Assembly (NCBI GenBank): GCA_030390025.1
Contig: CM059425.1
Span: 174,778,001-174,842,000 of the forward strand
Length of the DNA: 64,000 nucleotides
Direction: 5' to 3'
Origin: Squalus acanthias
Taxonomy: Eukaryota
Shown here: positions 18,011 to 57,124 of the stretch, in pieces
Layout: every line of letters starts with the position of its first letter
How positions within the stretch are numbered: the first letter of the stretch is position 1
The notes under the pieces: model-generated
The model's input: only the letters and a program-made list of their open reading frames with translations
Databases searched by the model: none
What the model was told of the DNA's origin: nothing
Position numbers and translations under genes: made by a program

Positions 18011-18068
18011 TGTGTTTTAACACAGGGAAGGGTGAAAAAATGGAGGTATACACTGCTTCAGAAATGGG
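18001..18068 (+). other. APC: APC 5'-UTR exon 1A homologue (start site approximate; splice donor at 18069)
   Basis: AATGGAGGT...TCAGAAATGGG|GTAGGTG matches the recalled human exon 1A end AATGGAGGT...TCGGAAATGGG|GTAGGTG; good GT donor. Confidence 0.8.
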
Positions 18069-19739
18069 GTAGGTGAAAATCAATTTTTTAAAATAGAATT
18101 ATTGTGTTTTATTGCCAGTAGGTTATATATAATTGTAACACCGTGTTCGTATTTACTGTTGAGTGGATTTGCCATTACAGTAGATCAGATATGGCTTTAT
18201 TTTGCGCGCATCAGCCTTTCCTGCTCTGAAAAGGAGGGTTGGGAAAGAAGGAGGCATTGTACTCTGTACAAGGATTGATGTTGGTGCTTAAGCAGAAGAC
18301 TGTTTCTCAGGAAACGAGAATGGAACCCAAAAAATTGTAGAGATAGATACTAAATGAAATACTGGTTTATTCCTGTTATGAATAAAGAGACTAAAGCAGA
18401 TTGCTTGATTCGAGAATAAGCTTATGAGGTTATAATGCAGTTGTTCATACCGGGTCTTGATGCAGAGGTTGGTAAAATTGCAATTTGCCCCTTTTTCCTT
18501 TTTGCTAGATCTGGTGGTCAGTTTATACACTTCAGTTTTCTCTCTCCTAAGTATAAGATATTTGTGTTTTAATGATGCCATGCTGTGTCTTTATAGCTGC
18601 TGAGTGGTGCTTTTTGTGGTTGACTGCAACCTCAGCTCCGAAAGCTGCGTAAGAGCTAACGTTGCTGCATTGCTGATTTTAAAAAACATATTTGGGAACT
18701 CAGGTTTTGTGTGTGATAATGGAAACCCTACTACAGGGAAAAATGCCTTTTGTGTGACATTATTTGAACTGAAATGAGGTTATGTTAGCCAGAGTAAATT
18801 GTATCATGAAGTGGATTTTATGGAAAGGAAAAACAGCTGTTGTAATTTCTTTTGTATGAAACAACACAATAGCTCAGCTGAAATCTGCGCTTTGAACTGA
18901 ACGCTCAGAAATCTTGTTAAATTATTTATTCACTGTCATTTAAAACAAATGGGATTTTCCTCACTGCATATCAGTAACAAAACATATAGATTACTATAAT
19001 CTGGCTGTTGTGTGCTCACATTTAAGTGTATGCTATGAACCTTTTTTCCCAGACATTTTAGGATTACAATTCTATTTTAAAATGGAGAATTTTTATGAAG
19101 ACCTACGAAGGAATATAAAGACTTGTGTACAGCTGAACTGCAGTACATAATGTTAGAATTTTACTACGGTGATTTTTTTTGCTGAGGTCTATTTAAATCG
19201 TGAGGCTAAATTGTATGTATTTTGATAGCTACCTAGAAAATCAGTTCATATAATTTCCCTCAAAATTGTGATCAAGGGACTAGCCAAAATGAATCTGTAG
19301 TGATTCGATATGGTTGCTACTCACAGAATCCGTTTCCCTTGATAGAGTTAGTGATATATGAATGCAAACAGTGTACAGTACTTCTTCAAAATATAAAGCC
19401 TGCTGCAGACATTCAAGCAAATACAAATCATGTCTGAATGCATGAAGTGCAGGTATTGTGTTGGTATCCCTGTTGCGAATTTGGTAGGTCATTGAGAATG
19501 ACGTTGTCTTTGGCCTCTTAACTATTTGAGGATTTATCTCCTTCATACCCTTGCAATAAGAGAAATATTCACCTTTTTCCCTTTGGCATACTCAGATAAT
19601 ATAATTTTCACTAAATGGACACAAATAAATTTGGGGTTTAGGGTACAGCAGATAAATGTTTTCCTTTTTCTTTCTTCTCTTCCTATACTGAAGAGCATGA
19701 CTGTTGCTGGGGTATAGTTCTACAGGTGCTTGCAGCCCT

Positions 19740-20030
19740 TGAGGTTGCATCAAAGTAGCTATTCTTTGTGTGACCTGAGTCCAAGAATGTCAGCAGGCAA
19801 TTCACCTATGGAGGGCATAAAAACCAAAACTAATCCTGACCTTACCTGACATCTACACATCCGTACTTTCTGGCAGAGCAATTGGATAGCAGTCAGACGG
19901 GAACCATAGCTCATTCCAGCCCCATCCCAAGTAGAGGAACACTGAAATGTCCCAACTGTTTCCCTGGCTAAGGTGTGCTAACTCAGCATAGATTTGGGAT
20001 TGAACCCGAGTTTCTATGGCTTAATGCTGC
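19740..20030 (-). mobile_element. Ancient tRNA-derived SINE remnant
   Basis: - strand B-box GGGTTCAATCCC followed by TGCTGAGTTAGC. Confidence 0.45.
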
Positions 20031-20459
20031 ATGGAAAATCTTTTGATTCAAAAATGCAATAGTCAGTTTTTAATAAGTTGAGTGGCATTTATTCCAATAT
20101 AGTACAAATTTCTGCAATATAGATTATGGGAAAGTGGTTATTAATTAATATTGTGTGGCTTTGTGCGGGCTAGTTGCCTATCTAGTAAAATATAATTAAA
20201 GTATTTTAGAGCTCTTGTTGACTTCAATATTTGGAGGGGATTTTTTATTCACAGTATTTTATACCCTTCAGGAACGGCCATTTGGGTCTTTTTTACCCAT
20301 CTTCTTGCATTGTATTTTCTCTCCCAGGCTCTGTGAGTCTTCAAAGAGAGAGTGACCATGAAGCCTTTGTCATTATTTACTAGCCACCAGCAGCTGCAAA
20401 ACAGTGGCCCAGTAGAGACCGTGCAAATTTTGGCTTACTATGTACAATGGCTGAGATTG

Positions 20460-20637
20460 AAGGAAAGAAAGAAGTTGCATTTATATAGCGCATTTCACGA
20501 CCTCAGAACGTCCCAACATGCTTTACAGCCAATTAAGTACTTTTGGAGTGTAGTCACTGTTGTAATGTAGGAAACACGGCAGCCAATTTCGACACAGCAA
20601 GCTCCCACAAACAGCAATGTGATAATGACCAGATATT
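20460..20637 (-). mobile_element. SINE 3' half (Deu-domain/L2-tail type), cut by Harbinger copy 2
   Basis: Same GCTATATAAATGCAAG(TTTC)n tail and body as the copies at 30715, 31530, 51610 and 61365. Confidence 0.7.
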
Positions 20638-20931
20638 GGGCTAAAAATTCAATTAGGTTAAAAAACGGGTACGGGATCCCGATGCGCAATCGGCCCGCGC
20701 CCATTGAAAGTAATGCAGGCAGCACATGACATTTGTGGTGCCTGCAAATTATCATTATTGATGCGTGCAGCCCAGTGCTGAGTGTGCTGCAGGGGGCCGA
20801 TGTTTGTGCGAGGCTAGCTCTATTTAAAGCTAGCCTCCACTTTTAAAGACAGTCTGTACCTCTTAAAAGTGAGGTACATTCTGCATTCAGCAGCTGCTGG
20901 AAGTGCTCGTCAAGGCAACTGTCACTCAGTA

Positions 20932-22846
20932 ATGGCTCAACAGGGCAGAGAAAAGGCACCAGGGTTCTCCGACGCAGCACTAGAGGCCTTAATGCAGGGG
21001 GTAGAATGGAGGAGACAGGTCCTCTACCCGCAGTGGGTCAGGAGGCCCTCCAGACTCTCAGTCAGGCACTGAGAGCAGATTGCTGAAGCGATCACTGCCA
21101 GCAGTCTTGCCCCGAGGGCCTGGACCCAATGCTGAAAGAAGTTCAATAACCTCACATGAGTGGTCAAGGTTAGTGAATGCATCCCAACTGCACCACTAGT
21201 CTCTCACACTGCTCAATGCACCACACCCCCATCACTCACTTACCAACAATCTCAATCAGTCACGACACATACCTCACATTCATAGCTTCACCTCACCCTC
21301 ACACACTTGCCACTGCTGCAAGACTCGCACCCACATCTGACACCTTGCACACACTGCCAGCTATTCAACCATGATAGGCACATCACTCAAACACATTACG
21401 CCACACTCACTGACACACTTCCCTTTCTCTTGCAGCGAAAGGTGGTTCATAACTGCAGGCAGCAGCAGCTAGCTGGCGGGGGACAGGCAAGCCTGCATAT
21501 CCTGACCCAGCTGGAAGAGACCGTGCTTGACATTATTGGAGGGGACGTCACTGAGGCCGTGGTGATCGGCGAGGCCGAAAGCATTGAAGATGATGGTATG
21601 CTCATACCTAATCCTTCTCCTCACATCCCACTTCCCCCTCATCCCACAATCTCTTCTCACTTAAAAGCTGCTGATGGTGTAAGCAATGCACATCTTGCTT
21701 TCCCCCCACTCCCCTCACCACAACCCTACCCTTGTGCCTTTCTCCTTTCAGATACACAAGAACTTCAACCTGGCCAGCCAGTGCAGCAAGAGCAAGATGA
21801 GAGTGATGGAGAAGAAGAGACACAGTTACTCGATCTCACACTCGCAGGCACCAGTTCAGAAACTGTCACTGGCGTACTTTAGAGGGTATTATAGAGGTGG
21901 GATCTGCACATGGTGAGTCACCGGGCACAAGTGGGCTGCAGCCAGGGCAGAGGGAAAGGGCAGCACAGGTGCCAGCTCCCCAGAGGACGAGATTGCACAC
22001 GATTTCTGCTGCAGAGGACTCAGATGAGGACTTCGATGGGGCTGCCTACAGAAGAAGGGTGATGGGCATGCACACAGAAATTCTTGGTGCATTGGCAGGC
22101 CTACCAGAGAGCCTGTTGTCACTGTCAAGGAGCATGGAGGAGTCCGGCTCCAACCTTGCACAGGGCTTTGCGCAGAACTTGGAGCTCTGATTTCCAGGAT
22201 GGAAGTGATGGGCAACTCTGCTAGCGCAACCATGATACAGGGTCTGATGGCTGATGTGTCAGCTTCCATTGCAGCTCGAGCAGAAGTCACCCAACATCTG
22301 AGTGATGCAGTGGAAGCTCAGACTTCTGACATACAAGCTCAACTTGCTGCTAAGCAAGCTCAGACTGCTCTAATGCAGGCTCAGCATGCTGCCACGCAAG
22401 TTCAGACTGCTGCCGTCATGGCTGGGTTTACGAGTGTGGAAAGGGGCTTGCAGGGTGTCGCAGCAGTCCAGCAATCTGTCCTCCAGATTACTAGGATTGC
22501 TCATCCGCCACCCTGGGGGAGTGGCAGTGGCTCTGTGGACCACAAACCTGCTGTCCTCTTTTAGGAAATCAGCATTCGTACTCCCACCACTGCCACTCCG
22601 CCAGTGCCATTTTAGTTGCCTGTCAGCCAGCCATCCCAGGCTGCTGCCTTCCATGCCGAGATGGTGCAGACTACAGCCGGGCCTTCTAGGCCCAAAGCTG
22701 CTCGAGGTCGTCCTGCAAGGCCATCTGCAGTCTCCCCCACTGAAAGTCAGCAGCCTTCCACCAGCCATGCTGCAGCCACTGGGGTAGCACTTCATAGGAG
22801 CACTAGGACAGGCAAAGGCACTAAGGGATTGCACAAGGGTGATTAA
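20932..22846 (+). pseudogene. Harbinger Myb/SANT protein, 3 exons (20932-21168, 21436-21595, 21752-22846), multiple stops
   Basis: MAQQGREKAPGFSDAALEALMQGVEWRRQVLYP...WTQC*KKFNNL; GT-AG introns at the same positions as copy 1; Ala/Gln-rich coiled-coil-like C-terminal region. Confidence 0.8.
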
Positions 22847-22989
22847 TTGACTTTGTTATGTACTACTGGATTGAATGATTTATAAATGTGGTTTGGAATG
22901 TTTGTTTTGTGGTGGCTTTCATTTCAGCATTGTGGCCAAGAGGATGCTGTGATCTTCTGTGGGGAGGTGTTGAGTAAAGGGAATCTGGG

Positions 22990-24036
22990 GGTTTCATTCA
23001 GGGGAACTGGAGTCTGATAATGCAGCCCGTCTGGAATGGGGATACTCCTTCCTTCCTCCTTTTCCTCTTCCTCCTGCTCATCATCCTGCTGCTGCTTCTC
23101 CGCCGGAACCCGTGGTGGAAAGGGCTGAGCCCTCATGGTAGCCAAGTTGTGGAGGATGCAGCAGACCACCACGAATTGGGACACCCACTCCGGCGTGTAC
23201 TGGAAGGCTCCTCCCGAGCGGTCAAGGCAGCGGAAGTGTTGCTTCAGCACCCTGATGCTCTGCTCGATGAAGTTCCTCGTGGCAGCATGGCTCTCATTAT
23301 ATGAGTGCTGTCCACGACTGATAGGGTGGCAGAGGGGAGTCATCAGCCAGATGTAGGGCGGATAGTCTTTGTCGCCGAACAGCCACCCTTGGGTTTGACG
23401 TAATGGCTGGAAGATTGCTGGCACAGCTTACTGATGCAGGATGAATGCATCATGACTGCTGCCAGGATAGCAGGCATTCACCATCATGATGTGCTTGGCA
23501 TGGTTGAACACCAACTGGACATTAAGTGAGTGGAACCCGTTGTGGTTACAGAACAGCTCACCATTGAGGTGCGGCGCCCGCAATGCCATGTGTGTGAAGT
23601 CGATGGCACCCTGTACCATGGGAAGCCCGATATCCTGGCAAAGCCACATGCGTGCTCCTTCTGACTCTGACCTCCCAGATGCACTGATGGACGGCGAACT
23701 GCGAGATGTTTGCTATGTTGCCTGTTCCAGCGTAGAAGGATCCTCTGGGGAAATAAATCAGGGCCACGGTTACCTTGAGGACTACTGACAGCACCGTCCT
23801 CACCCTGCTCTGAGGCTGCAGGTCTGGTTCCAAGAGGTGGCAGAGTTCTGTGACCACTTCCTTGGTGAAGTGGAGCCACTGACCACACTGCTCCTGGCTT
23901 AGGTGCAGGTTGGAGAAGTGCTCCCTGAAGACCCTAGAGGGGTAAGGCCTCCTGCTGAGAGCTCTCCTTTCTCCTCTCCCTCCCCTCCCCTCCCCCCCCC
24001 CCTCCAGCACTAGGGGGACTGCAACTAGAGTCCCAT
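22990..24036 (-). pseudogene. Harbinger DDE transposase (HARBI1-like), frameshifted
   Basis: VQGAIDFTHMAL, GFHSLNVQLV, YPGSSHDAFIL, WLFGDKDYP, HAATRNFIEQSIRVLKQHFRCLD, VCCILHN. Confidence 0.9.
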
Positions 24037-24489
24037 GACTGGGAGCAAATGGTTTAGTCAGAGGCCTTCCAGTAGCAGCCAACGCCTTCCCAATGTTCAG
24101 CAGCACTCCCTGTACACTTTACCAACTTTTAAAATCTCTTCCAGCACTCCAGTACTCCTACAAACTCTTCAAGAGCCAGTACAAAAGCAATAAGCAACTT
24201 ACCAGCATATCAAATTTTTGTGACTAAATACGTAGGTAACCACTAATAGAAATAGTTTTTGCTTACTTTAAGGAAAGCTTTAAATAAAGCCAGCTAAAAT
24301 TATTGGTTCACAACAGTGAGATGTAATAGTAACATCCTACTGCCACTTTCTGTTAAACTTTTTTGCTGGTAGAATCTTAGTATCATTACCTGTGTCTATG
24401 TGCGGCTCCTCCACAAGCTTGTCAGAACCATCTTTATTTGAAGGTAGTTAACACAGGTAGCCGAAATTGTACACATCATTTACAATGAG

Positions 24490-24850
24490 GAAATAACAAC
24501 AGAAAATGCTGGAAATACACAGCAGGTCAGGCAGCATCCGTGGAGAGAGAAACAGAGTTAACGTTTCAGGTCGAAGACCTTTCATCAGAACTGGAAAAAA
24601 GCAGGAAATGAAATAGATTTAAAGCAAGTATAATGCTGGGAAAAGGGGGAGGGGATGAAAGAACAAAAAGGAAGGTCAGTGGTAGGATAGAAAGCAGGAG
24701 AGATTAAGAGACATTGAGAGACATTAAGAGATATTCAAGGCAAGAGGAGGTGGTAATGTGACAGGTTGAGGCTAGATGAAGTGTGAAATGCGCTGGCAGA
24801 ATGAAGGACAGCTGCCAGCTTCTGGGAGGGAAGAAAAAAAGGGGCCAAAC
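24490..24850 (-). mobile_element. Penelope-like element terminal repeat with minimal hammerhead motif
   Basis: - strand AGTT-CTGATGA-AAGGTCTTCGACCT-GAAACGTTA-ACT (24556-24592), followed by the typical GATGCTGCCTGACCTGCTG...TTTCCAGCATTTTCTG tail. Confidence 0.75.
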
Positions 24851-26589
24851 AAAAGGGTGGATGAAAAAATAAAATAAAATATATATATATATGTGATAGG
24901 GACTTTGGGAAACTGTTGGAAATAATTTTTCAAGGAATATTGTGCAGGATAATGAGTTGCCTAATACGGTTTATGATTCTTGTTATGGTATGTTTTTGGT
25001 CAGCTTGAGACTGACGGATTATACCTCCATTGAATTTCTCACCTGAACAACAGCTCTTTCTTGATCCTTAACTGCACTGAACTATCAATATTGGGTATGA
25101 CTTTAAATGATCCAGTTAGGCTTGAACGAAGTATCTGGTCCAATGGTAAGAGCTTAATAATGGCCTTCTTAAATGCTTGCTTGTAGTTATTTCTTTGCAT
25201 GTTGGTATACCTGTCAAATCTTTGTCTCTATAACTAGAGTCTCTGGAGAGTAACAGTCTCTGAAAGTCACATGGAGTTACAGTTGCCTTATTATTTGTAG
25301 AAACAAACAATCCTTCTAAAAACTTAATTATTTTTTCAAACTTAATGTTGATAAAAGAGCTCCCCCCCCCCCCCCCCATCACCCATCAAGTTGAATTGTG
25401 CGTGGAGAGTAACCTAGTACTGCAGAACATTGAGAGAGGTAGGTAAATCTAGTTTTACTGGACAAGTTGCTAGCTAAATTCTTCACACCTTATGTTATGA
25501 TGCATTGGAATGTTTGCCACATGCAGATCAAAAATTAACTTGACTGATTCATTTTTCTAATATTTCTGTGAATACTGCAGTTTGAAGCAAGATTTAAATC
25601 TTTAGAATCTTGGAAATCAGTTTGGGGATCTTGGTTGCTTCACATTACAATATGATATGTTTTTTACAACTTAGATATTTGATGTGTAAGTTGGATTTAT
25701 GTATGTATTTCAGCAGCATGATGGTTTCTAATTTCTGTTGAACAAAACTATGGTTTCTAATGATACAATAGTTCAAATGACTTGTGTTGGAGTTTCTCAG
25801 GTCATTATGATGATTCATGGTGTTACTCATTTAAATGATACACAACAGAAAAGCTTTTTTAAGCGTGATAACAATAAGCCATTTAAAAGGAGGTTTCATT
25901 TCAGAATTTAAATAATGATCTAAAGGGACATTCTGTGACTAATCTATGTAATATTGATCTTTCACCCCTTTCTTCACTAAAAATACTGTCATTAAGTCAC
26001 AATTGGAGCAATTAATGGGTTTCTATTTTCAGGCAAACATAATTGAGTGTCAGAGGAATTTGCAAATAAATGATTGTTCTAAATTTTTGAGATTATTTAC
26101 ATGACTGATTTGAAATGTTACAAGGCCAAGATGTGAAACACCAGACAAATTATTCTTATGGAAGGGGAAACTAAGAAGTGAGTTTAATGGAGGCAGGCTT
26201 TGTATTGTGGACAGAGTCCTATGGTTAAAGAATTAAGTTCGTTTGGAAGAAGAGTTTACATTGCGTAGTTTTATGTCTGTGCAGTAACTGATTTATTATT
26301 AGATTAGTTTGTATTGCTTGATTAACACTTTCGGATTTCATTGCATGTTTTAAAAGTAGTTTTGTGACTTTAAGTACCTAATAAGGTATTTCAGAAAAGG
26401 TTGCATAATGAGCATGATAATTTTAGTAGATTGCATATTCTGAATCTTATCATGATGCCTGATAGAATAGAACTAGCTTTGATGGAGCTTGGTAAATCAA
26501 GTTTAGAGGCTATTATCCAATACATATCGGCTGCAAGTGACGAGTTAATAACTTCAGTTCTTGTGTAGTTGAGTGCATGTTACTGCAAT

Positions 26590-26810
26590 GGAATTGGGTG
26601 GTGTAGTGGGTTAAGCATTGACCTTTCACCTCAGGTTCAAATCCAGCCCAGGCTGATATGATGAAAGTCACCTCTCTCTCTATTGACTATAACAGTCTTT
26701 TGTGAAGTGAGTTTTGGCAGTCTCAATCCAGTTTCTGGTGGATATGGGACTAATTTAGCAATCTCTGAGAGGCCACAGGATGACTGGTGTGGCAACTGGA
26801 AAAGAAAATG
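26590..26810 (+). mobile_element. LF-SINE-like tRNA SINE fragment
   Basis: CCTTTCACCTC, GGTTCAAATCCAGCCCAGG, GAAAGTCA, TGTGAAGTGAGTT..GTCTCAATCCAGTT.CTGGTGGA and GAGAGGCCA blocks in the order recalled for the LF-SINE consensus. Confidence 0.62.
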
Positions 26811-26814
26811 TTGC

Positions 26815-27370
26815 ATCGTAACATCTAGACTTGACTATTCCAATGCTCTCCTGGGCAGCCTCCCATCTTCCACCGTACATCAACTTGAGCTCATCCAGAA
26901 CTCTGCTGCCCGTAACCTAACTCGCACCAAGTCCCGTTCACCCTTCACCCTTATGCTCGCTGACTTATTTGGCTCCCAGTCCGGCAACGCCTCGATTTTT
27001 AACATTTTCATGCTTGTTTTCAAATCCCTCTGTGGCCTCGCCCCACCCTATCTCTGTTACCTCCATCAGCCCTACAACCCTGCGAGATCTCTGCACTCCT
27101 CCAATTCTGGCCTCTTGAGCATCCCTGATTCTAATCGCTACACCATTGCCCTTAGCTATGGAATTCCCTCCCTAAATCTCTGTGCTTCTCTACCTCTCCT
27201 CCATTAAGACGTTGCTTAAAACCTACCTCTTTGACCAAGTTTTTGGTCATCTGTCCTAATAAAACCTTATGTGGCTCAGTATCAAATTTTGATTGATAAT
27301 GTTCCTGTGAATAGCCTTGGGATGTTTTACTACGTTAAAGGCCCTATATAAATGCAAATTGTTGTTGTTT
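26815..27370 (+). mobile_element. L2 LINE 3' end
   Basis: TSRLDYSNALLGSLP...LIQNSAARNLTRTK; (TTG)n tail at ~27358-27370. Confidence 0.82.
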
Positions 27371-31250: not shown

Positions 31251-31404
31251 TTAAAAGATTCCTTTCTTCCTCCTAAACTGCAAATATTCTATCCTATTAT
31301 TTCTCATCCTTACATCTTCACTATGTTGAAATTATGACTAATTGCACAGTCCTACTCCTAGCTCATTGTTTCTGAGGATCTCATTCCTTTCCCTCTACAA
31401 TCTT

Positions 31405-38850: not shown

Positions 38851-39199
38851 CACATAGTCACTGTTGGGTGGTGGGGGCGGGGGCGGGGAAGGGGAGGGTG
38901 TGGGATGTGGTGTGGGCGGGGAGAGACCTGAAAAGATGACACTGCTATAAAGTATATTGGTACTTCTCTTAACCTTCTCTGACCCAGTGAAAATTGTCTC
39001 GGTATCTCAAGTTTCCTTAAAGGTTGCTGATAACTGGTATCATCCTGGTAAATCTATAGTGTACACTGTCTTTAATGTCCCCTCTATATAGAGCACCTAA
39101 AACTGCCTAGTTGTTTGTCTAACTTAATTTCCTTGTACTAAATCGAGCAATGCTTCTTTCCTGATTTGGAAAACAAAGTAAGAGTTATCTAGGAGACCA

Positions 39200-41600
39200 A
39201 GGAGTGCATGCGAGATGGTTTCCTGGATCAGTATGTGGAGGAACCAACCAGGGAACAGGCTATTCTGGATCTGGTACTGTGTAATGAGAAAGGGCTAATC
39301 AATAATCTTGTGGTAAAGGGGCCTTCAGGGACAAGTGACCATAATATGATTGAATTTTACATTAAGTTTGAGAGTGATGTAGTCCAATCTGAAACTAAGG
39401 TCTTCAATCTAAACAGAGGAAACTACAAGGGTATGAGGGACAAGTTGGCCATGGTAGATTGGGAGACTACACTAAAAGGTATGAAGGTGGACATACAATG
39501 GCTAACATTCAAGGAATTAATGCATAATTTGCAACAAACATATATTCCTCTAGGAAATAAAAACCCAAAAGGAAAAGTGATCCAACCATGGCTAACAAAA
39601 GAAATTAAAGCTAGTATTAAGTCAAAGGAGGAAGCTTATAAAGTTGCCAGAAAAAGCGGTCAGCCTGAGGATTGGGATCTTTTTAGAAATCAGCAAAGGG
39701 GGGCCAAGAAATTGATAAAGAAAGGGAAAATGGAATATGAGCACAAACTAGCGAAAAATATAAAAACGGATTATAAAAGCTTCTATAGGTATGTGAAAAG
39801 GAAAAGACTGGCGAAGGTAAATGTAGGTCCTTTACAGTCAGAGACGGGAGAACTTATAATGGGGAATGAGGAAATGGCAGAGAAATTAAATAAATACTTT
39901 GTTTCTGTCTTCATGGAGGAAGACACAAAAAACCTTCCAGAAATACGAGAAAACCAAGGGTGTGGCGAGAATGAGGAACTTAAAGAAAGTATTATTAGTA
40001 CATAAACAGTACTAGCAAAATTAATGGGACTAAAAGTCGACAAATCCCAAGGACCGGATGACCTACATCCTAGGGTTTTGAAAGAGGTGGCCATTGGAAT
40101 AGTGGACGCATTGGTTGTCATCTTCCAAAATTCTATAGATTCTGGAACGGTTCCTGCAGATTGGAGGATAGCAAATGTAACCCCGCTATTTAAGAAAGGA
40201 GGGAGAGAGAAAACGGGGAACTACAGACCTGTTAGCCTCACATCAGTAGTTGGGAAAATGCTGGAATCTATTATAAAGAATGCAATAACTGGGCACCTAG
40301 AAACTAATAGTAAGATTGGGCAGAGTCAACATGGATTTATGAAAGGGAAATCCTGTTTGACAAACCTATTGGAGTTCTTTGAGGATGTAACTAGTGGAGT
40401 AGACAAAGGGGAACCAGTAGATGTGGTGTATTTGGATTTTCAGAAGGCCTTCGATAAGGTCCCACATAAGAGGTTGGTGAACAAAATTAGGGCACATGGA
40501 ATTGGGGGTAATATACTAGCATGGATTGAGAATTGGTTAACAGACAGAAAACAAAGAGTAGGGATAAACGGGTCTTTTTCAGGATGGCAGGCTGTGACTA
40601 GTGGGGTACCGCAAGGATCGGTGCTTGGGCCCCAGCTATTCACAATCTATATCAATGATTTGGATGAGGGGACTAAATGTAACATTTCCAAATTTGCTGA
40701 TGATACAAAGCTAGTTGGGAGTGTCAGTTGCGAAGAGGATGTGAAGAGGCTTCAAGGGGATCTCGACAGGCTCAGTGAGTGGGCGAGAACATGGCAGATG
40801 GAATATAATGTGGATAAATGTGAAGTTATCCACTTTGGTAGGAAAAACAGAAAGGCAGAGTATTTCCTAAATGGTGAAAGATTGGGGAATGCAGATGCTC
40901 AAAGGGACCTGGGTGTCCTTGTACATGAGTCACTGAAAGTGAATGTGCAGGTGCAGGAAGGCAAATGGTATGCTGGCCTTCATTACAAGAGGATTTGAGC
41001 AAAGAAGTCTTACTCCAATTATATAGGGCCTTGGTGAGACCACACCTGGAGTACTGTGTACAATTTTGGTCTCCTTGCCTAAGGAAGGATATACTTGCCA
41101 TAGAGGGAGTGCAACGAAGGTTCACGAGATTGATTCCTGGGATGGCGGGACTGTCGTATGAGAAGAGATTGAGTAAACTAGGCCTGTATTCTCTTGAATT
41201 CAGAAGAATGAGAGGGGATCTCATTGAAGCATACAAAATTATTACAGGGCTTGATAGGGTGGATGCTGGGAGAATGTTTCCCTTGGCTGGGGAGTCTAGA
41301 ACCAGGGACCACAGCCTCAGGATAAAGTTTAGGCCATTCAGGACTGAGATGAGAAGAAGTTTCTTCACACAGAGAGTGGTGAATCTTTGGAATTCTCTAC
41401 CCCAGAGGGCTGTGGAGGCTCAGTCATTGGGTATATTCAAAACAGAAGTCGATAGATTTCTGACTAATAAGGGCATCAAGGGATATGGCGATAGGGCCGG
41501 TGAATGGAGTTGAGGCAGAAGAGCAGCCATGATCTCATTGAATGGCGGAGCAGGCTCGAAGGTCCGAATGGCCTACTCCTGCTCCTGTTGCTTATGTTCT
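39200..41600 (+). mobile_element. CR1 LINE, 5'-truncated, young (ORF2 with about two frameshifts)
   Basis: ORFs 39208..40005, 40024..40998 ([27 protein letters not shown]) and 40965..41513; 3' end CCGAATGGCCTACTCCTGCTCC. Confidence 0.95.
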
Positions 41601-46835: not shown

Positions 46836-49699
46836 TTGTAGGTGAATACTCCATGCCACTAATTTGTAATGAAGAATGTGTTTGTAATGCTTTATCTTCT
46901 CTTCTATAGGTATAGCAGAAGAAGCTAAGCTGGGGCCCAACAATTGGGCGCAATCATGTACTTCACAGCACATCGTATCACTCAGTCTCACCCTGGTATC
47001 CTCTCTAGGGGATTTAGAAAGTCAATATAAGGAGAGTACACTCGGTGAGGCAGCACAAGGGTGCAGGAGCAAGTGGATGTGGCACAAGGGTAGTAAGAAA
47101 CAGATGGCAAGAAGGTGAGATCACAACCATGCACAGCTAATGGGGACAAGGATCCTGATTAGTAGGGTCCAGATTTTAAAAGAACCATGTGATCTGAGCA
47201 TGAAAGATTGTTCATGTCATTGGGGAGTATACCGACCAGCTTTCATCACATGGGGACTAGTGTGGAGGATCCCACAACCTATAAAGGTGGTGCATTAATG
47301 CATGGGATAAAAACACTGCAATGCACCATGGAGTACATGGCAACTCCAGAGCCATTAGGGGTGGAGCCCTCCCAGGATTGAGGCCCCAATGGCAGTCTTG
47401 GCATATCTCAAGAATGCTCAGATTTCTGCCGTACAAGCCGTGAGCTTTAATGTTGATTCTTCATTGGATAGCTTTGGTAATCAAAGGGAGTGAACTATTG
47501 ATAGGGACTTCAATAAAGTTGTTGCTGACATTTAGTCAGCTGGGCTGCAAACCACCATGATGCTGTTGCTGACTCTTCTGTTGGCAGTGCATCTGCATCA
47601 TTTCACCAGGCCCCTTTGATGTACTGAAAAATAAGCAGGATAAGGCTGCACAGGTAACTAGAAGTGGTGCGTGCAGCTGGACTATCTCAGGCCCATATGA
47701 TTGAGTGCAACCTCAATCCCAGAAGTCTCACATGGTCACAGCTGCCAGTCTCTTCACAGGTTCCAACTATTGGGATAAAACTGAGAAGAAGCACATAATT
47801 CGGTTAGTGAGGGGAAGTGCAATGGTAGCAAGCAATAGAATTAGAGAAACAGTAATTGGATAAGAAAATATTGTAATATTGTAGTTACAAGCGCAGAGTG
47901 TTTCATTGATATGGTTCAGGGCCATATTTATGCAGTATAGCTGGTGGTTAAGAAAGTTGCTGTACAAATGTAGTTGATGGGGATTTTTCAGACATGGGAA
48001 GGTAGAGGGAGGACTAAGTGCTAAGGGTGGATGGGGTAATTATAAGAAGTTGTTATCGGAGAGACCGTCAAACAGCTCTTGCATCTGGCAAAGGTGCTTG
48101 TTCACTTGGATCGTTTGGCTCCTCAAGGTCCTGAATGAAGTACCTGTGGTAATGTTCAGTGCCCTCCTGCTGTGGCATGTCCATGTTCATATTGATTCCT
48201 CAAAGAAAAGCAAAATTATGGATCATGCAGTAAACAACAATGATTCATGACACTTCGGTCAGGCTTTGGCTATTATATGCCTTTTGAGCTATAAAGGCAT
48301 TGGAATCTTTGTTTTCCCATGCTTGTGCTGTTAATGAAAGCTCTGGTTAATGCATGCACCTCATTGCACCTGTGCTCGGAATCTGAATGGAGCTGCTGTA
48401 GTTATGGTTATGAGCTATGGTTGGAGAGAGTAGACAGGCACTCAGAAGCCAACTTTGCACTTCTCTTTGTGGATCAAATAAGGGGGCAGTAGTGGATGGC
48501 CTTAAAATGAAAGCATCACAGCTGTTGCAGGGGAAAGAGGCATTTACTTGCGTGATTCTATGCAGATGGTTATAGACTTCTTGCACAATGGTATAATGAT
48601 GACCTTTTTAGTTTATGAATTTTCCACTATTATATGTCGGAGCACATGGGGTTACACGTGTGCAATCAGTGATACCCTGGACTTTAAAGAATGCAGCCGT
48701 TTGGCAAAACTTTAGGGCTGTTGCTGATTGTCCATAGGGGAAGTGATAAAATTGCTTACTCTAGGAAATAACATGACAATCACCTGCTTTATGCATCTGT
48801 GGACTTCAGACTAACTGCTGATGTTTCTACCATCTGCTTGTAAAGAGTTGAAGGCAGAAAAAGTTCAGGGCTGGCAGCACCATTCTTCTGGAGTTTGGCT
48901 AGAGGTCATCATAATTTACACAGCACAATACTGCTGCTGCTGCCTTATTGAATCTAAACCTTTACATGCGTTGTCCCTCAGACAAATAAAGATAAGTCCG
49001 CCGTTGCTGATAGATTTGGTTGGAAAAGTAATGGTGGGTAGGAGCCCTCTTCCTGTAATGTCTCCTGGTTCCAATTGCATCCATTGGTTCCTCTTCATCC
49101 TCTGTTTCTCCAAGTGATACAAATAAAGTCGGATTTCCATCGGAACACTGGAGATAATGATCTCTAAAGCTGCCCTGCAAAGCTCCTTGCCCCACACAGT
49201 TGAGCAGAAAGGAAAAATAATGAAGCTAAAGTCTGTACGTTGTTGGCTGCCCCTTTAACGAATCTTTTATGGAAATGTGCAGCCCAGCAACTGTCAACAC
49301 CCAGTTTATATAGGCAAGATTTGAAAGTGACATTGCACTGGCATGTTAACTGGAAAAAGATCATGAAAGAGTAATGACATCACTGGGACATCATTATGAT
49401 ACTATGAGGCTCCTGCCTCTTTCAGGAGCCTGCTCCTGCCACCAGTCCCTCTGAAAATGTAGGGGATGTACAAAAGGGGTGGAGACCCAGTGTTACAGGT
49501 ATCTGCAACTTTTTCCAGTCCTGTCTGCCCTGGAAACTGCCGCACATGGGACATTAACCAACATATAAACCGGCTCCATGGCCTGTTAACCATATTTTAG
49601 AAACATCTCAAAAGTGTTTTGCACACAATGAATTGCTATGACATGCAGTAACTGTTGTGTAGGCAAAAGTGACTACCATTTTCCACAATTCTGCTTGAC

Positions 49700-51300
49700 A
49701 AACTTAATTTAAAAATTTTGAGGAGGTAACAGCAATGGTAGATGGGGGAAATCCATGGATGTAGTGTACATGGACTTTAGGGAAGAATTTGACACAGTAC
49801 CTATGGAAGGTTACTAGAGAAGATGAAGGAGTGTAGAATTAGGGGTAGGATAGTAAACTGGATTAAAAATTGGTTAGTAAAGGGAAAAGATTTAAGGGCA
49901 GTTTTTCCAGAGTGATTGGAAGTTGGGTGGTGGTGTCTCACTCAGTTTAGATTTGGGGTCCTTTTGTTCACTGCTTATCAACCATTTTGATATCGGTCAA
50001 GAGGGAATGGAGTAGAAATTTGTAAATTATACCAAAATAGGAGGTATAGTTAATTTTTTAGAAAGCCAAAGGAAGTTGCAAAGGAATATTGAAAAGATGG
50101 GGGAAATGGGCTAAAAAATAGCAAATGGAATTGAATTTGAATAAGCGCGGTCATATATTTTGGTTAAAAAAATAACAGCAGTAATTATTCTCTGAAAGTA
50201 AGTAGTTATGGTGCTGTGGAAGAGCAGAGAGAGTTGGGGATATAGATTCACAGGATATTGAAGACAGAACCTCAGGTTGATAAGGCCATTTAAAAAAAAA
50301 TAGCTAATAGAATTCTTGGTTTTATCAGAAGGGGTATAGAATATAAAACCAAGGTAATGATGAGCCTACATAAAACCTTAATGTGGTTGCCATTAGACTA
50401 CTGTATGCAGTATTGGGCTCCACACTGTAGAAAGGATATTGAGGCTTTACAGTGGGTACAATGCAGATTTACTGGGATACTACCTGGTATGAGGCAATGC
50501 AAATATGAGGAAAGACTTGAAAAAAAATTTTTTTCATTAAAATAATGCAGATTATGGGGCAATATGATAGAATTATTTAAAATTATGAAAGGATGGATCA
50601 GAGTAGATAGAAGCAGGTTGTTTCCAGTTGTTGAGGGGTTTGGAACAAGAGGCCATGGACGCAAAAATAAATGTAAGAGATTTAGAACAGAGAGGAAGAG
50701 AAACTTCTTTATTTTCTCATCCTTCCATGGCCTCGCCCTTCCCTATCTCTGAATCTCCTCCAGCCCCACAAGCCTCCGAGATATCTGCGCTCTTCCAATT
50801 CAGGCCTCTTGAGCATCCCTGATTTTAATCACTCCACTATTGGTGGCTGTGCCTTCAGCTGCCAAGAACCTAATCTCTGGAATTCCCTCCCTAAACCTCA
50901 CCTCATATCTTCCTCTCTTTTCTCCTTTTAAGGTGCTCCATAAAACCTACCTCTTTGACCAATCTGTCCTAATATCTTCCTATGTGGCTTGGTGTCAGAC
51001 TTTGTTTTATAACGCTCCTGTGACGTGCCTTGGGATGTTTTACTACGTTAAAGGCGCTATATAAATACAAGTTGTTGTTGTACACAGGAAGTTGTGAGGC
51101 TGTGGAATTCATTTCCAAGGTTAGTGGTTGAGGCAGAAACTGTATCGGCATTCAAGATCAGATTGAATAGGTGGATGAAGGAAAAGCTATCAAAACGATT
51201 TGGGAACAGGATAAATATCATTGGGAGTATTTGCTCACGTGGATGGTAAATACCGACACAGACTGGTTCGGTCGAATGGCCTGTTGTTACTTCTATGTAT
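49700..51300 (+). mobile_element. Old CR1 3' half with a nested L2 3' end (~50710-51080)
   Basis: LDYCMQYWAPHCRKDIEAL and YEERLEK; L2 (TTG)n tail at ~51070; CR1 3' end at ~51280. Confidence 0.75.
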
Positions 51301-51609
51301 ATTTCTACGAAGAATGGTCACTTGGAGGAGGTATAGAAGGGCTTTTGGTTTCAGTGCTTTCAGGAGAGGAGAGGAGAGGAGTAAAATAATAAGAAAAATT
51401 CTGGGCGTTATTCACCTAAGTTTGTTTTTTAAGATTTGGATTGCATAGAATGTACAGCACAGAAACAGGCCATTCGGCCCAACAGGTCTATGCCGGTGTT
51501 TATGCTCCACACGTTGATTTCGCTCTCTTTTATAAATTATAATAAAAGTGGCTTTCCTGTAAGAGAGATTACTCGGGATTCACTACATCTGAACCTTTTA
51601 ATTTTAGTA

Positions 51610-52010
51610 TCAACTTGGCTCAGCACTAACATTTGTGCTTCTCTGAATCAGAAGGTTGTGGGTTGAACCCGCACTGCAGGACTTAGCCCATAATATTAGC
51701 TGCATTGTCAGAGGTGCTATCTTTTAGACAAGGTGTATAACATGTTCAGGGGAATGTGAAATGTACCATGATGCTAGTCAAAGAAGAGCTGGGGAGTTCT
51801 CCAGGCCAGTGTTTATCCCTCAATCAACATCGCCAAGAACAGATAAACTTGTTATTTATCTTGTTGCTATTTGTGAAACCTTGCTGTGTGCAAATTGGCT
51901 GCCATATTTCCCTATGTAACAACAGTGACTACACTGTTATTCATTGGCTGTGAATTGCATTTGGGTGTCCTGAGGGCACAAAAGGTGCTATATAAATGCA
52001 AGTTCTTTCT
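51610..52010 (+). mobile_element. tRNA-derived Deu-domain-type SINE with L2-like tail
   Basis: TGGCTCAG A-box, GAATCAGAAGGTTGTGGGTTGAACCC head, TGCATTGTCAGAGGTGC body, GCTATATAAATGCAAGTTCTTTC tail. Confidence 0.7.
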
Positions 52011-52846
52011 TGTGTTTGAGTGATGCCTTAATCAAACTCAATAGATATAGACTATTCCACAACCCACACTGGTTGAATGGCGCTACTCTGTTTTATAGTT
52101 CATGATTCTAAGCAGGGCAAGCTTCGCAGGTGTAATTCTTCAATTTTAAAAAATTATATTAATTAAATTATGCATTGCAAAGCATAATTTCTTTTCCATA
52201 TGATTACTTATGGCGGACCAAATTAGGTTTAATAGAAAAAAATGAAAATGATGTATGGCAATTTACTGCGTTTCCCCTTAACCAGCATACGAGGTCAAAA
52301 AATCGCAGGTATTAACATGGATCTCACCACTCTGTAACACAGTATATAGAAGAACCAGGACAAATTTTTCATTTAAAAAAATTTTAGCACTAGTTGATCT
52401 CCTATGGAGTTGCTCATGCCAAGTTGGAGGAAAAGTTGCTTTATCTATCCAATGGTTTAGTCTACAGTGAGCATGAGAACCTCTGCTATTACTTCTATCC
52501 CTCACTGTTAACTGCTTACCCTCTGGTTTGTCTTGTGCAATACCGTCCCGCCACACAGTCTCCTCCCCTGCCACCCCTACCCCCTTGTCTTCTCACCTCT
52601 CCCCTCATCCCGCCTAAACTTCAGCTGTTGACTTCCTCCATGACTGCCTACCTGCTCCCTCATTGATTACTCCCTGCCTCGCGCACCCTTCCCACAAGCC
52701 TCATTTTCTTATCCTGACAGAGTATTGTCACTGTGGCTTTTAATGTTTAATATGCTTCATCGTGTGTGTTTCTTGCCTTTGTAATGACTGTTGTGAATTC
52801 TTTAATTAAAGGCTTTTCCAGATTTATTAGAAAGTGGCAAAGACTA

Positions 52847-54054
52847 TGACCAGAAATTATGGTTGGAGGCTTCCCGCGGGCGAATGCCTCCGAACCGCAA
52901 GTAAAATCCATACTTACCTGATGGCCCCGGACCTAAGAAGACTCGTGCTCCTGGGCCTGCAGGCGTATGCCTGTGAAAAGGCCCACATTTCCCAGGGGCA
53001 TATGCAGTTCGCAAGCATCCCTGGGATCACGTGGGCCAGCCCAACCAATCAAAAAGGGAGATTCCCATTCTGGATTCCATTTACATACGGAAACCACATA
53101 AGCAGAATAGGAATCCCCTAAAAATACACTATCACAGCACTTAAATAAAAATAAATGATCACATGTTTAAAATGAATTAAAATACAGGAAACTCTTTCGT
53201 ATCCGGCACCTACGGGACCGGGATGGTGCCGGTAGATTAAAAATTCCGGATAACGGAGAGGTATACCTACCGAGGCAATTTATATATCGGCCGACATCAG
53301 ACCAGAAGAAGGTAATTCTGTGGGGGTGTTCCGAACTCCGGAGGGGAGGTGGGACATGGAGTGGCAATGGCCCAAGCTGGTTTTGTAAAAGCCAAAGGAG
53401 CACACCTGCTTATTCTGGCCCCACAGGTATACAGTAAAACTTACCTTTGGGTTCCTCTTTGGCTGGACGGCCAGCTGATACTGTGCGGGGAAGATTGCAA
53501 CGCCCACAGCGACGGCGGGAACAAGTGGTAAGTCATTCCCCACCATTTTCGGGACACTACTGCCCCGTTCCTTCTGGGGCGGAAGCCTCAAAACCTACTG
53601 CTGAATTTTGCCGGTTATTAAAGAATTCCGGATGGTTAAGTGCCGTTTAAACAAGAGTTTACTGTACAATTTAATTAAACATTTAAAACAAAAATTTAAT
53701 TTTTTGAAAAATAAATTTAAAGCTTTCTAAAAGGGCCAAAAATAACCTAAACTAATTTTAAAGGGTTTTTGAATGTTTAAATGATTAAAAAAAAATTATT
53801 TAATATTTATTTAAACCCTTACACTGGTAAAAGAAGACCTTACGCCTGCTTTTACCAGGCGTAAGAGTTTTGTGGGCATTCACTGGGCAGTAGTTGTGCA
53901 AATAGCCCAATCCTGTGCCAGCGAATGTCCATTTCCTGCGGATGGGCACGATCTGTCAAGCTGAAATTTGATCGATCGTAAGTTCTGGGTTTTCTCGCAT
54001 GCGGAAACCCGGAACTTGTGCATACGCAGTCATAGTCCCCGGAAAATCCGGGCC
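52847..54054. mobile_element. MITE-like element (relative of 11220-11965) hosting a nested pogo/Tigger-type MITE
   Basis: TGACCAGAAATTATGG ... CCGGAAAATCCGGGCC ends; shared internal palindrome at ~53824-53858. Confidence 0.7.
53185..53664. mobile_element. Tc1/mariner-pogo (Tigger-like) MITE with TA TSD
   Basis: TA|CAGGAAACTCTT...CGGCAC and GTGCCG...AAGAGTTTACTG|TA; ~28-bp imperfect TIRs. Confidence 0.78.
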
Positions 54055-54499
54055 TGTATTTTAATAAAAAGTAATAAAGGCTGCTGGCAATCGATCAATA
54101 AACTATGTTTACTGAAATCGATATACTCATGAACACACTCCATAAGGATAGGTTGACATCACTGCAGCACATCCTGGTCATTGAAATGTTCTTGTGCACT
54201 GTATAAAGAGAAAAGCCCTTTTAACAGATATTGCTGAAAAAGAATTAAAATAATTGTAGACTAATTTAAACCGATGTTCTGAGGAATGATGGATGAATTT
54301 TAATGTAAAAATAAATCTAACATATTAAGGAATAGGAAACATGTACCTTGTAAAATATGCTCATTAGAGGATATGCAAAACATACTAATGAACGCACTTC
54401 ACATGGTACATGTTTCATATTCCATAATTTATTGTGACAATTGATGACTCGATACCTCTGTTCTGTGGTGAATTAAATTTTATCACAACTGCCTCCTCC

Positions 54500-56030
54500 T
54501 TCACTACTACATTGCCAGGATCCTCTTCTCTAGTGAAGATAGAGGGAAAGACCTCAGCCTCCATTTTAGTCTCTAATTGGCGCAAACCTTCCTTTGATTA
54601 CCCTTTTACTGTTTATATGTCTGTAAAAGACTTTTGGGTTCCCTTTTCTGTTGGCCGCTATTCTCATTCTCATACTCTCTCTTTGCCCCTCTTTGTTCCC
54701 TTTTCAGCTTGGATGTCTACTGTATTATCAACCTTACATTGTCATAGCCTCCTTTTTCTGTTTCATTTTGATCTTTATATCTTTAGTCATCCAGGGAGCT
54801 TGAGCTTTGGCTGTCCTTTTCCCCTTGCAGGAATGTGTCTACTCTGTACTTGAACTATCTCCTCTTTGAGGGTCTCCTCCCATTGGTCAGTTACTATTTT
54901 ACTACCAATGTTTGATTCCAATCCACCTGGGCCAGATTTCTTTTTAACACACTGAATTTAGTCCTCCTCTACTTAAGTATTTTTACACTTGATTGTTCCT
55001 TGTCCTTTTCCATAACTATTCTAAACCTGATATTATGATCACTATTCCCCAAATGCTCCCCCACTGAAACATGCTCCACTTGCCCCACTTCATTCCCCAG
55101 AACTAGATACATACTAGGATAATTTAAGTCCCCCATTACCACTACTCTACAGTTCTTGCATCTTTCTGTAATTTACTTGCAAATTTGCTCCTCTGTCTCC
55201 TTCCCACTATTTGGTGGCCTACAGTATGCACCCAGTGGTGTAATAGCTCCTCTGTTGTTCCTTAATTCTAACCAAATAGATTCTGTCTTTGACCCCCCAC
55301 AACTACATCATCCCTTTCTAGTGTTATAATAGTTTCTTTGATCAGTAGTGCCAGCCCCCCTCGATTTTTTTCCTTCCCTGTTTGCTGAATACCTTGCAGT
55401 CAGGAATATCAAGTTCTCAGTCCTCTCCTTCTTTGGGCCAGGTCTCTGTTCTTGCCACTATATCATAGTCCCACGTGGCAACTTGTGCCAACCCTATTTA
55501 CCACGCTATGTGAATTTACGTACGTGCACTCCAAACCCACCTTAGACTGCCTCATATTTACTCTCTGTCTGATCCCTCCTATTTTTGAACTATTCTTTAC
55601 TCTAATTTGTGTCTCCCCGTCCTCTGTGCACCTTGTTTCTCCTCTCTAATGTTTCATCCTGGTGCCCAGCCCCCTGCCAAATTAATTTAAACCTTCCCCC
55701 ACAGCACTAGTTAACTTCCCTGTGAGGAGATTGGTCCCAGCTCTGTTGAGGTGCAACCCATCCAGCTCCCTCCTGCTCCTGAACTGGTCCCAATGCCGCA
55801 GGATTCTGAAGCTCTCCCTCCTGCTTCATTTCTCCGGCCATGTGTTAACCAGTTTTATCCGTCTATTCCTATACTAAGTAGTGCATGGCAGTGGGAGTAC
55901 TCCAGAGATTACTACCTTTTGAGGTCCTCCTTAGCTCCTGAAACTCGACTGCAGAACCTCAACCCTTTTCCCGATGTCATTGGTTCCCACATGGACCACG
56001 ACTTCTGGCTGTTCCCCTTCCCTCACCCTC
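54500..56030 (-). mobile_element. CR1 LINE fragment (ORF1 esterase end and APE region with internal deletions)
   Basis: EQPEVVVHVGTNDIGK (55931..56146); antisense APE-like segments. Confidence 0.72.
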
Positions 56031-56983
56031 CCAGTGAAAAGATGATGGAGAGGGTCCAGATCTGTCGAGGTGCTGACAGATACACATAATTTAGATATAA
56101 CCTGTCTTTTTGACTTGAACTGTGAGCGCATGTGACTACTGGACATGGGGGCAGGATTAGTGAACCTAGAATGAAACTAGAAACTACGAATATGTTTTTC
56201 TGATAGAGACCATGTGGTACAGACTCCTAGCCAAACAATTGATGCTGTGGTGATTAACTCCTTCAAAAATGCCAAATAAATTGTTGGGCTTGGATTCTAT
56301 GGACTGAGATGATCAAATATTCCAGAGAACAGAATGATTTCTGTGCTTCCGGCACTGACTGATGGGATTTGTCCATGGAGGGCATCTGGCCATGGTTGAA
56401 TGCTGAAGATGTGGATTAATTGATATTCTGCAATTTTACTTGATTATCTTTGAGAATCAAATAGAAATTGGGCAGAACTTTGCGGAGGGGATTAAATCAA
56501 TAGAGCAAAATCCATCATGAGGTAGATTGCTCATGTTCTGTGGTAAGGACGGGCTTGATGGGCCAAAATTGCCTTTTCTTATTCCTTGGTTTCTTAATTT
56601 CCTATGGCTTCAGAGGCAATACAATAAGATGCATAATGCTCGTGGAGAGGCAGAATTCTGCAAATTTTCTGTAAAAGTAACAGTGAACTTAAGACTTTAT
56701 AATCTTGCCTTCAGTGCAATTATGTTAGGTGTGATTTAAATATTGGAGATCAAAGGCTAAACTACAATTCAAAGGGAGCTAACAGGAAGAAATTAAACCA
56801 AAAGTTACATCTGCTATCATAATCTGGCAAATGTGAATAATTTAAAGTCTTGGAAGCTGAAATGTGCAGTTTTTAATTGGCACACTGTAAACTCATTGTC
56901 AGTTTTGTAACAAGCCATGTTCCAACGATAGAAGTGTAGCTAATATATCTGTATTTTTTAAACAGGTCAGTGTCTAGTTCAGG

Positions 56984-57124
56984 ATGGCTGCATCATCAGC
57001 TTCATATGATCAGCTCCTGAAGCAGGTAGAGGCACTTAAAATGGAGAATTCAAATCTGCGACAGGAATTAGAGGACAACTCAAACCATCTGACACAACTA
57101 GAGACAGAGGCATCCAACATGAAG
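56984..57124 (+). CDS. APC: Adenomatous polyposis coli protein, first coding exon (exon 56966-57124; N-terminal oligomerisation coiled coil); gene continues beyond the window
   Basis: MAASSASYDQLLKQVEALKMENSNLRQELEDNSNHLTQLETEASNMK, near-identical to the human APC N-terminus; acceptor TTTTTTAAACAG at 56965, 18-nt UTR portion, phase-0 donor AAG|GTACAT. Not in the ORF track because it is under 60 aa. Confidence 0.97.

What the first reader, a model, noticed from the sequence alone, without database searches (positions are those of the whole stretch)
18040..57020. Deeply conserved out-of-frame upstream ORF overlapping the APC start codon, created by splicing across a 39-kb intron
Seen in sequence: exon 1A has two in-frame AUGs in strong Kozak context (AAAATGG at 18040, GAAATGG at 18064). 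Splicing 18068 to 56966 gives MEVYTASEMG-SVSSSGWLHHQLHMISS* (27 aa). This ORF passes the APC AUG (56984) out of frame and stops at TGA 57018-57020, just before a strong-context in-frame Met20 (57041). From memory, the human 1A transcript gives MEVLPDSEMGSKGSQGWLQLHMISC*, with the same two AUGs, the same 29-nt + 18-nt spacing and a stop at the equivalent place. Inference: keeping both uAUGs and exact UTR lengths between shark and human suggests a selected translational-control module. It could dampen APC output from promoter 1A, redirect ribosomes to Met20 to make an N-truncated APC, or encode a micropeptide. The C-terminal half is constrained by the APC frame, so only the UTR half is independent evidence. 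I do not know whether this has been described.
Basis: partly seen in the sequence, partly recalled or inferred. Interest (0 to 1): 0.85.

Follow-up and report, generated by a model that had tools for sequence, protein, structure and literature searches.

The report
Ancient overlapping uORF on APC leader
The first exon of a shark's APC tumour-suppressor gene carries two upstream start codons whose spacing appears unchanged in mammals, and when this exon is spliced by its short splice site they would open a short reading frame across the real start codon, likely damping APC protein output from this promoter.

Summary
The arithmetic is right: AUGs at 18040 and 18064, donor after 18068, acceptor before 56966, a 27-codon out-of-frame ORF over the APC AUG (56984) ending at 57020. 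The junction itself was not seen. RNA-type contigs joined exon 2 to three other exons, one a downstream donor at 18467; the 18068 donor is supported indirectly (a contig starting at 18041; annotated chimaera and mammalian isoforms). Conservation was tested through database proteins that read exon 1A in other frames: 41 placental-mammal records keep N-G dipeptides at both AUG positions, with 42/24/6-nt spacing equal to the shark's, while little between them is kept. Best reading: a conserved repressive overlapping uORF on one 1A leader (0.5); main rival: promoter (YY1/TISU-like) plus splice-site constraint (0.33). No translation data; not found in print. A new member of a known kind.

The parts
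17894..17920 (+). Upstream conserved promoter block (reads S-S-C-V-I-x-W-M in shark and in a monkey isoform)
   Evidence: P0350; function not tested
17965..17970 (+). Inverted CCAAT box of promoter 1A
   Evidence: sequence; 18 nt to the E-box in shark and monkey; CCAAT-factor binding in human known from a reference title only
17984..17989 (+). E-box (USF-type)
   Evidence: sequence; H-V codons in mammalian isoforms; USF binding in human from a reference title only
17997..18006 (+). Conserved block, likely start-site region (W-L-Y in the mammalian frame); contains a further AUG at 17996 used by a chimaera gene model
   Evidence: start-site role inferred, not mapped
18040..18042 (+). uAUG1, strong context, 47 nt before the APC AUG in the short splice form; also resembles a YY1/TISU core
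18064..18066 (+). uAUG2, strong context, in frame with uAUG1, 5 nt before the donor
18068..18069 (+). Short donor of exon 1A (phase 2 for the uORF); if unused, the uORF stops at TAG 18070-18072 after 10 codons
   Evidence: sequence; use inferred from contig start 18041 and from annotated isoforms P0294/P0289 and 41 mammalian records
18069..18467 (+). Exon 1A extension ending at a second donor, joined to exon 2 in an RNA-type contig; holds 8 more AUGs
56966..57124 (+). APC first coding exon (18-nt untranslated part with an in-frame TAG, AUG 56984, Met20 57041, Met46 57119)
57018..57020 (+). Stop of the overlapping ORF, formed across the Leu12-Lys13 codons; 20 nt before Met20, 98 nt before Met46, 104 nt before the next exon junction

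Best explanation
Exon 1A of this shark APC gene holds two strong-context upstream AUGs that, in the likely short splice form, would start an out-of-frame ORF running over the APC start codon and so likely act as an old, selected brake on APC translation from promoter 1A. Scanning ribosomes loaded near 18000 (inferred start) would meet uAUG1, then uAUG2; those that initiate elongate past the APC AUG and cannot make APC, so output depends on leaking past both. Termination 104 nt upstream of the next exon junction could also expose the mRNA to nonsense-mediated decay (inferred from the general rule, recalled). What matters is the AUGs and their frame, not the peptide or the stop. Using the 18467 donor instead turns the same AUGs into a 10-codon uORF that ends inside the unused donor. 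Shown: sequence, the 18467 form, protein-level conservation. Inferred: the short junction, the start site, initiation, repression.
For: Between shark and mammals only 8 of 24 positions of the exon's 3' part match, in three blocks: the start-site block, the uAUG1 context (N-G-G) and the uAUG2 context (N-G). All 10 distinct tails from 41 placental records keep both N-G pairs, while 10 of 24 columns vary; the residue before each N varies only as Q/R and G/E, which keeps a purine at -3. Spacing start-block to uAUG1 to uAUG2 to donor is 42/24/6 nt in both, whereas 2 of 3 intervals upstream in the promoter changed (63 vs 72, 15 vs 13). The mammalian coding frame cannot explain this: it has two stops in the shark (18018, 18033). 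A chimaera isoform matches the window at 23 of 24 residues up to the same donor. Vertebrate uORFs are usually weak-context and depleted within about 100 nt of the CDS, and strong, close ones are more repressive (PMC4890304 passages), so retention of two strong ones at -47 and -23 is atypical.
Against: No ribosome or reporter data; APC is absent from three published uORF tables, though one of them also lacks ATF4. The short junction to exon 2 was seen in 0 of 8 lays, other partners in 4 of 4. No DNA of any other vertebrate was obtained, so the AUG wobble bases are unverified, and 0 of 487 APC-like records inform on exon 1A in birds, reptiles, amphibians or bony fish. uAUG2 abuts the donor, and the whole exon is nearly invariant among cartilaginous fishes, so DNA-level constraint is certainly present. 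A/G changes at -3 are transitions and weak evidence. Stop and 18-nt spacer are not specific. The start site is not mapped; AUGs very near a cap leak in ordinary contexts (PMC2518114 passages).
Confidence: 0.5

Rival explanations
1. The AUGs are by-products of DNA- and splice-level elements: uAUG1 lies in a YY1/TISU-like downstream promoter element and uAUG2 in the exonic part of the 5' splice site of a short first exon whose length is fixed by promoter geometry. Any translational effect is tolerated because 1A is a minor promoter.
For: TISU is a YY1 element with an AUG core located just downstream of start sites (PMC2518114); APC's own 1B exon has a disease-relevant YY1 site containing A-T-G (PMC11078748 table and PMC12003607), and the shark 1B-type exon has a like motif (recognised from recall of the consensus). 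CCAAT-to-E-box spacing is also exact (18 nt). 23 of 24 identity in a non-uORF frame with a chimaera shows constraint over the whole exon. Human 1A transcripts are 25- to 1000-fold below 1B in colon and blood (PMC3240859).
Against: Does not explain why two AUGs stay in one frame with no indel over 72 nt while the bases between them diverge; the AUG of uAUG2 lies at -5 to -3, mostly outside the positions a donor needs (general knowledge). It is not exclusive of the best explanation, since TISU acts on both levels.
Confidence: 0.33
2. The ORF redirects ribosomes to make an N-terminally shortened APC: re-initiation at Met20 or Met46, or in-frame fusion when exon 1A splices to the phase-2 exon at +148339.
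For: Met20 has a strong context and is Met in 325 of 328 records; uAUG1 is in frame with that downstream exon in silico; one shark gene model starts at Met46 (P0281).
Against: Only 20 nt separate the stop from Met20 and re-initiation falls with short distance; 32 of 47 columns of this exon are invariant in alignment A1, so Met20 is unremarkable; 0 of 487 records begin with the uORF N-terminus.
Confidence: 0.08
3. The 27-residue product is a functional micropeptide.
For: The frame is open for 109 codons upstream in the shark genome; the flanking codons of the first ten are compatible with conservation.
Against: The five central codons share nothing between shark and mammals in the readable frame; the C-terminal 17 codons are dictated by exon 2; no homologue among 1.84 billion representatives (14 hits, 30-38% identity; the 3 scanned are Ig- or Tudor-repeat proteins), no Atlas hit, no Pfam family.
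Confidence: 0.05
4. The conserved letters serve an alternative APC N-terminus (BS-APC type) read in another frame when exon 2 is skipped.
For: 41 mammalian records read the exon in phase 0 into the next exons; BS-APC is a described isoform (PMC10470845 passage; that these records are BS-APC is my inference); a chimaera model reads it in phase 1.
Against: The phase-0 frame is closed in the shark; shark and mammal models use different frames; mammalian tails vary radically at 10 of 24 columns.
Confidence: 0.04

Closest known systems
Overlapping upstream ORFs (uoORF/oORF) of vertebrate 5' leaders
   Same: AUG in the leader, out of frame, stop downstream of the main AUG; 688 'uoORF' entries in the Ribo-seq table of PMC10032668.
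   Different: Not in that table or in two others; exists only in one splice form; translation not shown.
Conserved inhibitory uORFs of Hox and EIF5 mRNAs (PMC8892498)
   Same: Deeply conserved uAUGs whose function would be inhibition rather than peptide.
   Different: Those have conserved weak contexts and sense initiation stringency; these are strong-context. That study listed APC only as its 1B transcript.
TISU / YY1 downstream element (PMC2518114)
   Same: AUG with purine -3 and G +4 close behind a start site, on the sense strand.
   Different: uAUG1 is probably about 40 nt from the inferred start (TISU: up to +30), departs from the core after the AUG-G (consensus recalled), and opens an out-of-frame ORF rather than the main one.
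Human APC promoter 1A / exon 1A and the BS-APC isoform
   Same: CCAAT box, E-box, donor position, place between 1B and the first coding exon.
   Different: Shark 1A is not a CpG island (GC 0.36-0.40), its phase-0 frame is closed, and it has a 399-nt extension to a second donor.

Membership tests
Overlapping uORF (uoORF) | AUG upstream of and out of frame with the main AUG, stop downstream of it | tested here: met
   (for the 18068|56966 form)
Overlapping uORF (uoORF) | The splice form that creates it exists | tested here: inconclusive
   0 of 8 lays show the junction; contig start 18041 and annotated isoforms support the donor
Overlapping uORF (uoORF) | AUGs lie inside the capped transcript | tested here: inconclusive
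   contig covers from 18041; chimaera model reads from the 17996 equivalent; no cap data
Overlapping uORF (uoORF) | Ribosomes initiate there and main-ORF output falls | not testable with these tools
   APC absent from three tables
Conserved uORF | AUG position, frame and context kept across distant species | tested here: inconclusive
   met at protein-derived positions in 41 placental and 2 chimaera records; wobble bases and other classes unseen
Conserved-peptide uORF / micropeptide | Peptide sequence conserved beyond start context | tested here: not met
   central five codons unmatched; no homologues; dN/dS not possible
ATF4-type re-initiation switch | A short re-initiation-permissive uORF upstream of the overlapping one (recalled definition) | tested here: not met
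   downstream of 17997 both AUGs belong to one overlapping ORF
TISU / YY1 element | Core match, position up to +30 from the start, YY1 binding | tested here: inconclusive
   partial match by eye; start site unmapped; binding not testable
APC exon 1A orthologue | Promoter blocks, donor position and splicing into APC exons | tested here: met

The most novel reading that the evidence does not exclude
APC exon 1A is a splice-controlled translational switch older than the shark-mammal split: the short donor makes a strongly repressive overlapping ORF, the long donor or exon-2 skipping lifts it, so promoter 1A transcripts yield little full-length APC unless spliced otherwise. This would give a mechanism for 1A methylation behaving as a passenger, and make 1A uAUG variants or uAUG-blocking oligonucleotides levers on APC dose.
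Probability: 0.2. Interest if true: 0.72.

Novelty: new member of a known kind. Interest (0 to 1): 0.45.

Why it matters
APC is dose-sensitive, and promoter 1A is the one methylated in cancers, with debate on whether that methylation is a passenger (PMC8103321 passage). If the standard 1A leader is throttled by a conserved overlapping uORF, 1A mRNA levels overstate its protein contribution, variants at the two AUGs become interpretable, and one reporter experiment tests it. The class of element is common; the depth of conservation and the gene are what add interest.

Tried and rejected
No run on record as RNA was listed (kinds are guesses). X3, X4, X10 gave no contig on exon 1A: no evidence either way. 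Pattern scan for the two-AUG motif in JGI metagenome contigs: 0. Exon-2 relatives in metagenome and viral contigs: 0 confirmed of 150 and 50 candidates. phmmer and Atlas with the uORF frame: only repeat-protein noise or nothing. A paralogous exon 1A in 199 kb upstream of APC2: none; best local scores 18-28 against a background of 22 +/- 4, maximum 37. The CpG-rich stretch near 8000 is not the 1B promoter; it looks like a repeat by eye, and 1B lies 97 kb upstream of the window. Folding of the inferred leader: z = -1.9, not notable. An acceptor-like site before 18026 suggested an internal exon; untested, and its AG does not align with the mammalian frame by eye. The exon-4 join was off by one base and was redone (46 codons, out of frame). 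My argument that A/G at -3 excludes YY1 was dropped: TISU positions 1-4 were dispensable for YY1 binding. A recalled APC leader variant report was not found. Two look-ups of earlier scan findings were empty. Six cited-from-memory papers could not be opened (seven attempts), among them the GENCODE Ribo-seq catalogue paper, a human brain Ribo-seq study and the APC internal-initiation paper; two large supplements of PMC4890304 were unreadable; these may list this ORF.
Full report
Setting. The window lies in a 3.7-Gb genome (G000:C1:174778001-174842000). The exon at 56966-57124 encodes the APC N-terminal coiled coil (PF16689); its closest named relatives are ray and shark APC proteins, so the organism is a cartilaginous fish, probably a shark. 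A second match is taken to be APC2 (66% identity; name inferred). Later APC exons lie 113-212 kb from the window start.

Observation. All coordinates and the 27-codon overlapping ORF are as stated. Unspliced, the ORF stops after 10 codons at TAG 18070-18072, inside the donor. Two strong-context AUGs open in this frame arise in 0.26% of 20,000 shuffles of 18000-18068, a post hoc figure.

Splicing. Twenty runs hold exon 2, none on record as RNA, 14 guessed RNA. Seven were laid in two calls, X6 twice. On exon 1A, 1 of 4 gave a contig: X6, 18041 to beyond 18400, no differences. On exon 2, 4 of 4 gave exon-bounded contigs with loose 5' ends. X6's is the same 586-nt contig and joins a donor after 18467 to 56966. 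X5's maps without mismatch to a 76-nt cassette exon 9.9 kb upstream of the window; X11's and X13's map, with 6 mismatches in 30, to a CpG-rich 1B-type exon 97 kb upstream. It remains likely: contigs overlap by 30 nt at forks, and 18041 is 30 nt before the base where a junction from 18068 into an exon beginning GT would fork; loss of the short branch in assembly clean-up is my inference. Independently, two Callorhinchus records (P0294, P0289) read exon 1A from the AUG equal to 17996 to this donor and on into exon 4, with 23 of 24 residues identical to the window, and 41 mammalian records end the exon at the same donor. In human, NM_000038 is a promoter-1A transcript (PMC3240859 passages); that it joins this donor to exon 2 is recalled.

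Conservation. No DNA of other vertebrates could be had. Instead I used 487 APC-like proteins from three searches and three cluster look-ups (only the listed best hits and up to 15 members per cluster). Forty-one records from primates, rabbit, hamster, bats and a whale read exon 1A in phase 0. They give 10 distinct 24-residue tails, all ending N-G-G-x5-N-G, as does the same frame in the shark; each N-G spans one of the AUGs. Shark and mammal match at 8 of 24 positions: W-L-Y, N-G-G and N-G, with nothing in between (chance that 5 matches among 21 include those 4 positions is 8e-4, post hoc and ignoring adjacency). The residues before the two N's vary only as Q/R and G/E, keeping a purine at -3. 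Intervals are 42, 24 and 6 nt in both lineages, while upstream promoter intervals are 63 vs 72, 18 vs 18 and 15 vs 13. Limits: the third base of Asn, which makes the U of each AUG, cannot be read from protein; all 41 are placentals and many are near-duplicates; none of the bird, reptile, amphibian or bony-fish records showed exon 1A.

What is not independent evidence. Shark APC2 also has its acceptor 18 nt before the AUG and a stop in the same shifted frame at the same codon pair, and no exon-1A-like sequence was found in 199 kb upstream of it. The stop follows from Leu-Lys: 74% of 112 Leu codons in the large APC exon end in A or G, and 5 of 9 Leu-Lys pairs give such a stop. Among 20 records that read through the exon-2 spacer, 13 show 7 codons (21 nt; mostly unnamed, teleost-like) and 7 show 6; placing the acceptor at Q/K-V is inferred, and only lengths divisible by three can be seen this way. 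Met20 is Met in 325 of 328 records, but 32 of 47 columns of this exon are invariant and it lies only 20 nt after the stop.

Mechanism. I favour a selected translational brake (0.5). Vertebrate uORFs tend to have weak contexts and to avoid the 100 nt before the CDS, and strong, close ones repress more (PMC4890304 passages); two strong ones kept in one frame at -47 and -23 are hard to call neutral. Ribosomes starting there cannot re-initiate at the APC AUG, and the stop lies 104 nt before the next junction, a possible decay trigger (rule recalled). Donor choice changes the outcome: the 18467 form has ten AUGs from 18040 on, only one of which, in weak context, overlaps the APC AUG. The main rival (0.33) is DNA-level constraint: TISU is a YY1-bound AUG element just behind start sites (PMC2518114 passages), APC's 1B exon has a pathogenic YY1 site containing A-T-G (PMC11078748 table, PMC12003607 passage), the exon is nearly invariant among cartilaginous fishes, and 1A is the minor promoter in human colon and blood. 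The two can both hold. Truncated APC (0.08), micropeptide (0.05) and BS-type coding (0.04) are weak; the last frame has two stops in the shark.

Literature. Ten full-text searches (listings read, up to 30 rows each) showed no paper describing this ORF. APC is absent from the supplements of PMC10032668 (control: 688 uoORF entries, AXIN1 present, ATF4 absent), PMC4739776 (ATF4 present) and PMC5799362 (no control run), and from the main text of PMC13087467. PMC8892498 lists APC only as its 1B transcript (passages and supplement). PMC7253449 has one supplement row giving 15 high-impact uORF-perturbing variants for an APC transcript, not read further. PMC10470845 and PMC8103321 were seen as passages; PMC11437038 was irrelevant. 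The 1990s papers on APC's 5' exons are recalled, were not seen, and may mention these AUGs; automated uORF databases very probably list the human one.

Verdict. New member of a known kind; interest 0.45.

Noticed in passing
window 18069-18467: A 399-nt extension of exon 1A to a second donor is joined to exon 2 in X6; 18041-18400 shows no difference between that run and the window. Possibly a strongly conserved or tissue-specific leader.
   Followed up: partly
G000:C1, about 97.2-97.5 kb upstream of the window start: 1B-type first exon in a CpG-rich stretch with a YY1-like motif. It too has an AUG (80 nt before the APC AUG, +4 G) that would overlap the APC AUG in the same frame; skate and catshark models fit that frame, a basking-shark model does not (compared by eye).
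   Followed up: partly
G000:C1, 9962-9887 bases upstream of the window start: 76-nt cassette exon joined to exon 2 in X5; it also carries a weak-context AUG in the overlapping frame. All four leader forms examined have one such AUG.
   Followed up: partly
window 56966-56983: The in-frame TAG before the APC AUG is missing in skate and ray records, which gives predicted N-terminal extensions (P0262, P0265, P0016).
   Followed up: partly
G000:C1, exon 3 acceptor at +113491 from the window start: Tandem acceptor (NAGNAG-type) at exon 3; X6 shows a fork at the end of exon 2 whose second branch is not identified.
   Followed up: no
L002 / G000:C19:31680855-31681013 (-): The APC2-like exon keeps the 18-nt acceptor-to-AUG distance, so this spacer seems older than the APC/APC2 duplication; reason unknown.
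   Followed up: partly
window 39193-41513 and 60231-62838: Long stop-free frames and strong purine skew, probably retroelement and simple-repeat DNA in the introns.
   Followed up: no
P0121, P0253, P0259, P0449: APC isoforms of Scyliorhinus torazame are named 'signal recognition particle 19 kDa protein' in the database, which suggests a merged APC-SRP19 annotation.
   Followed up: no
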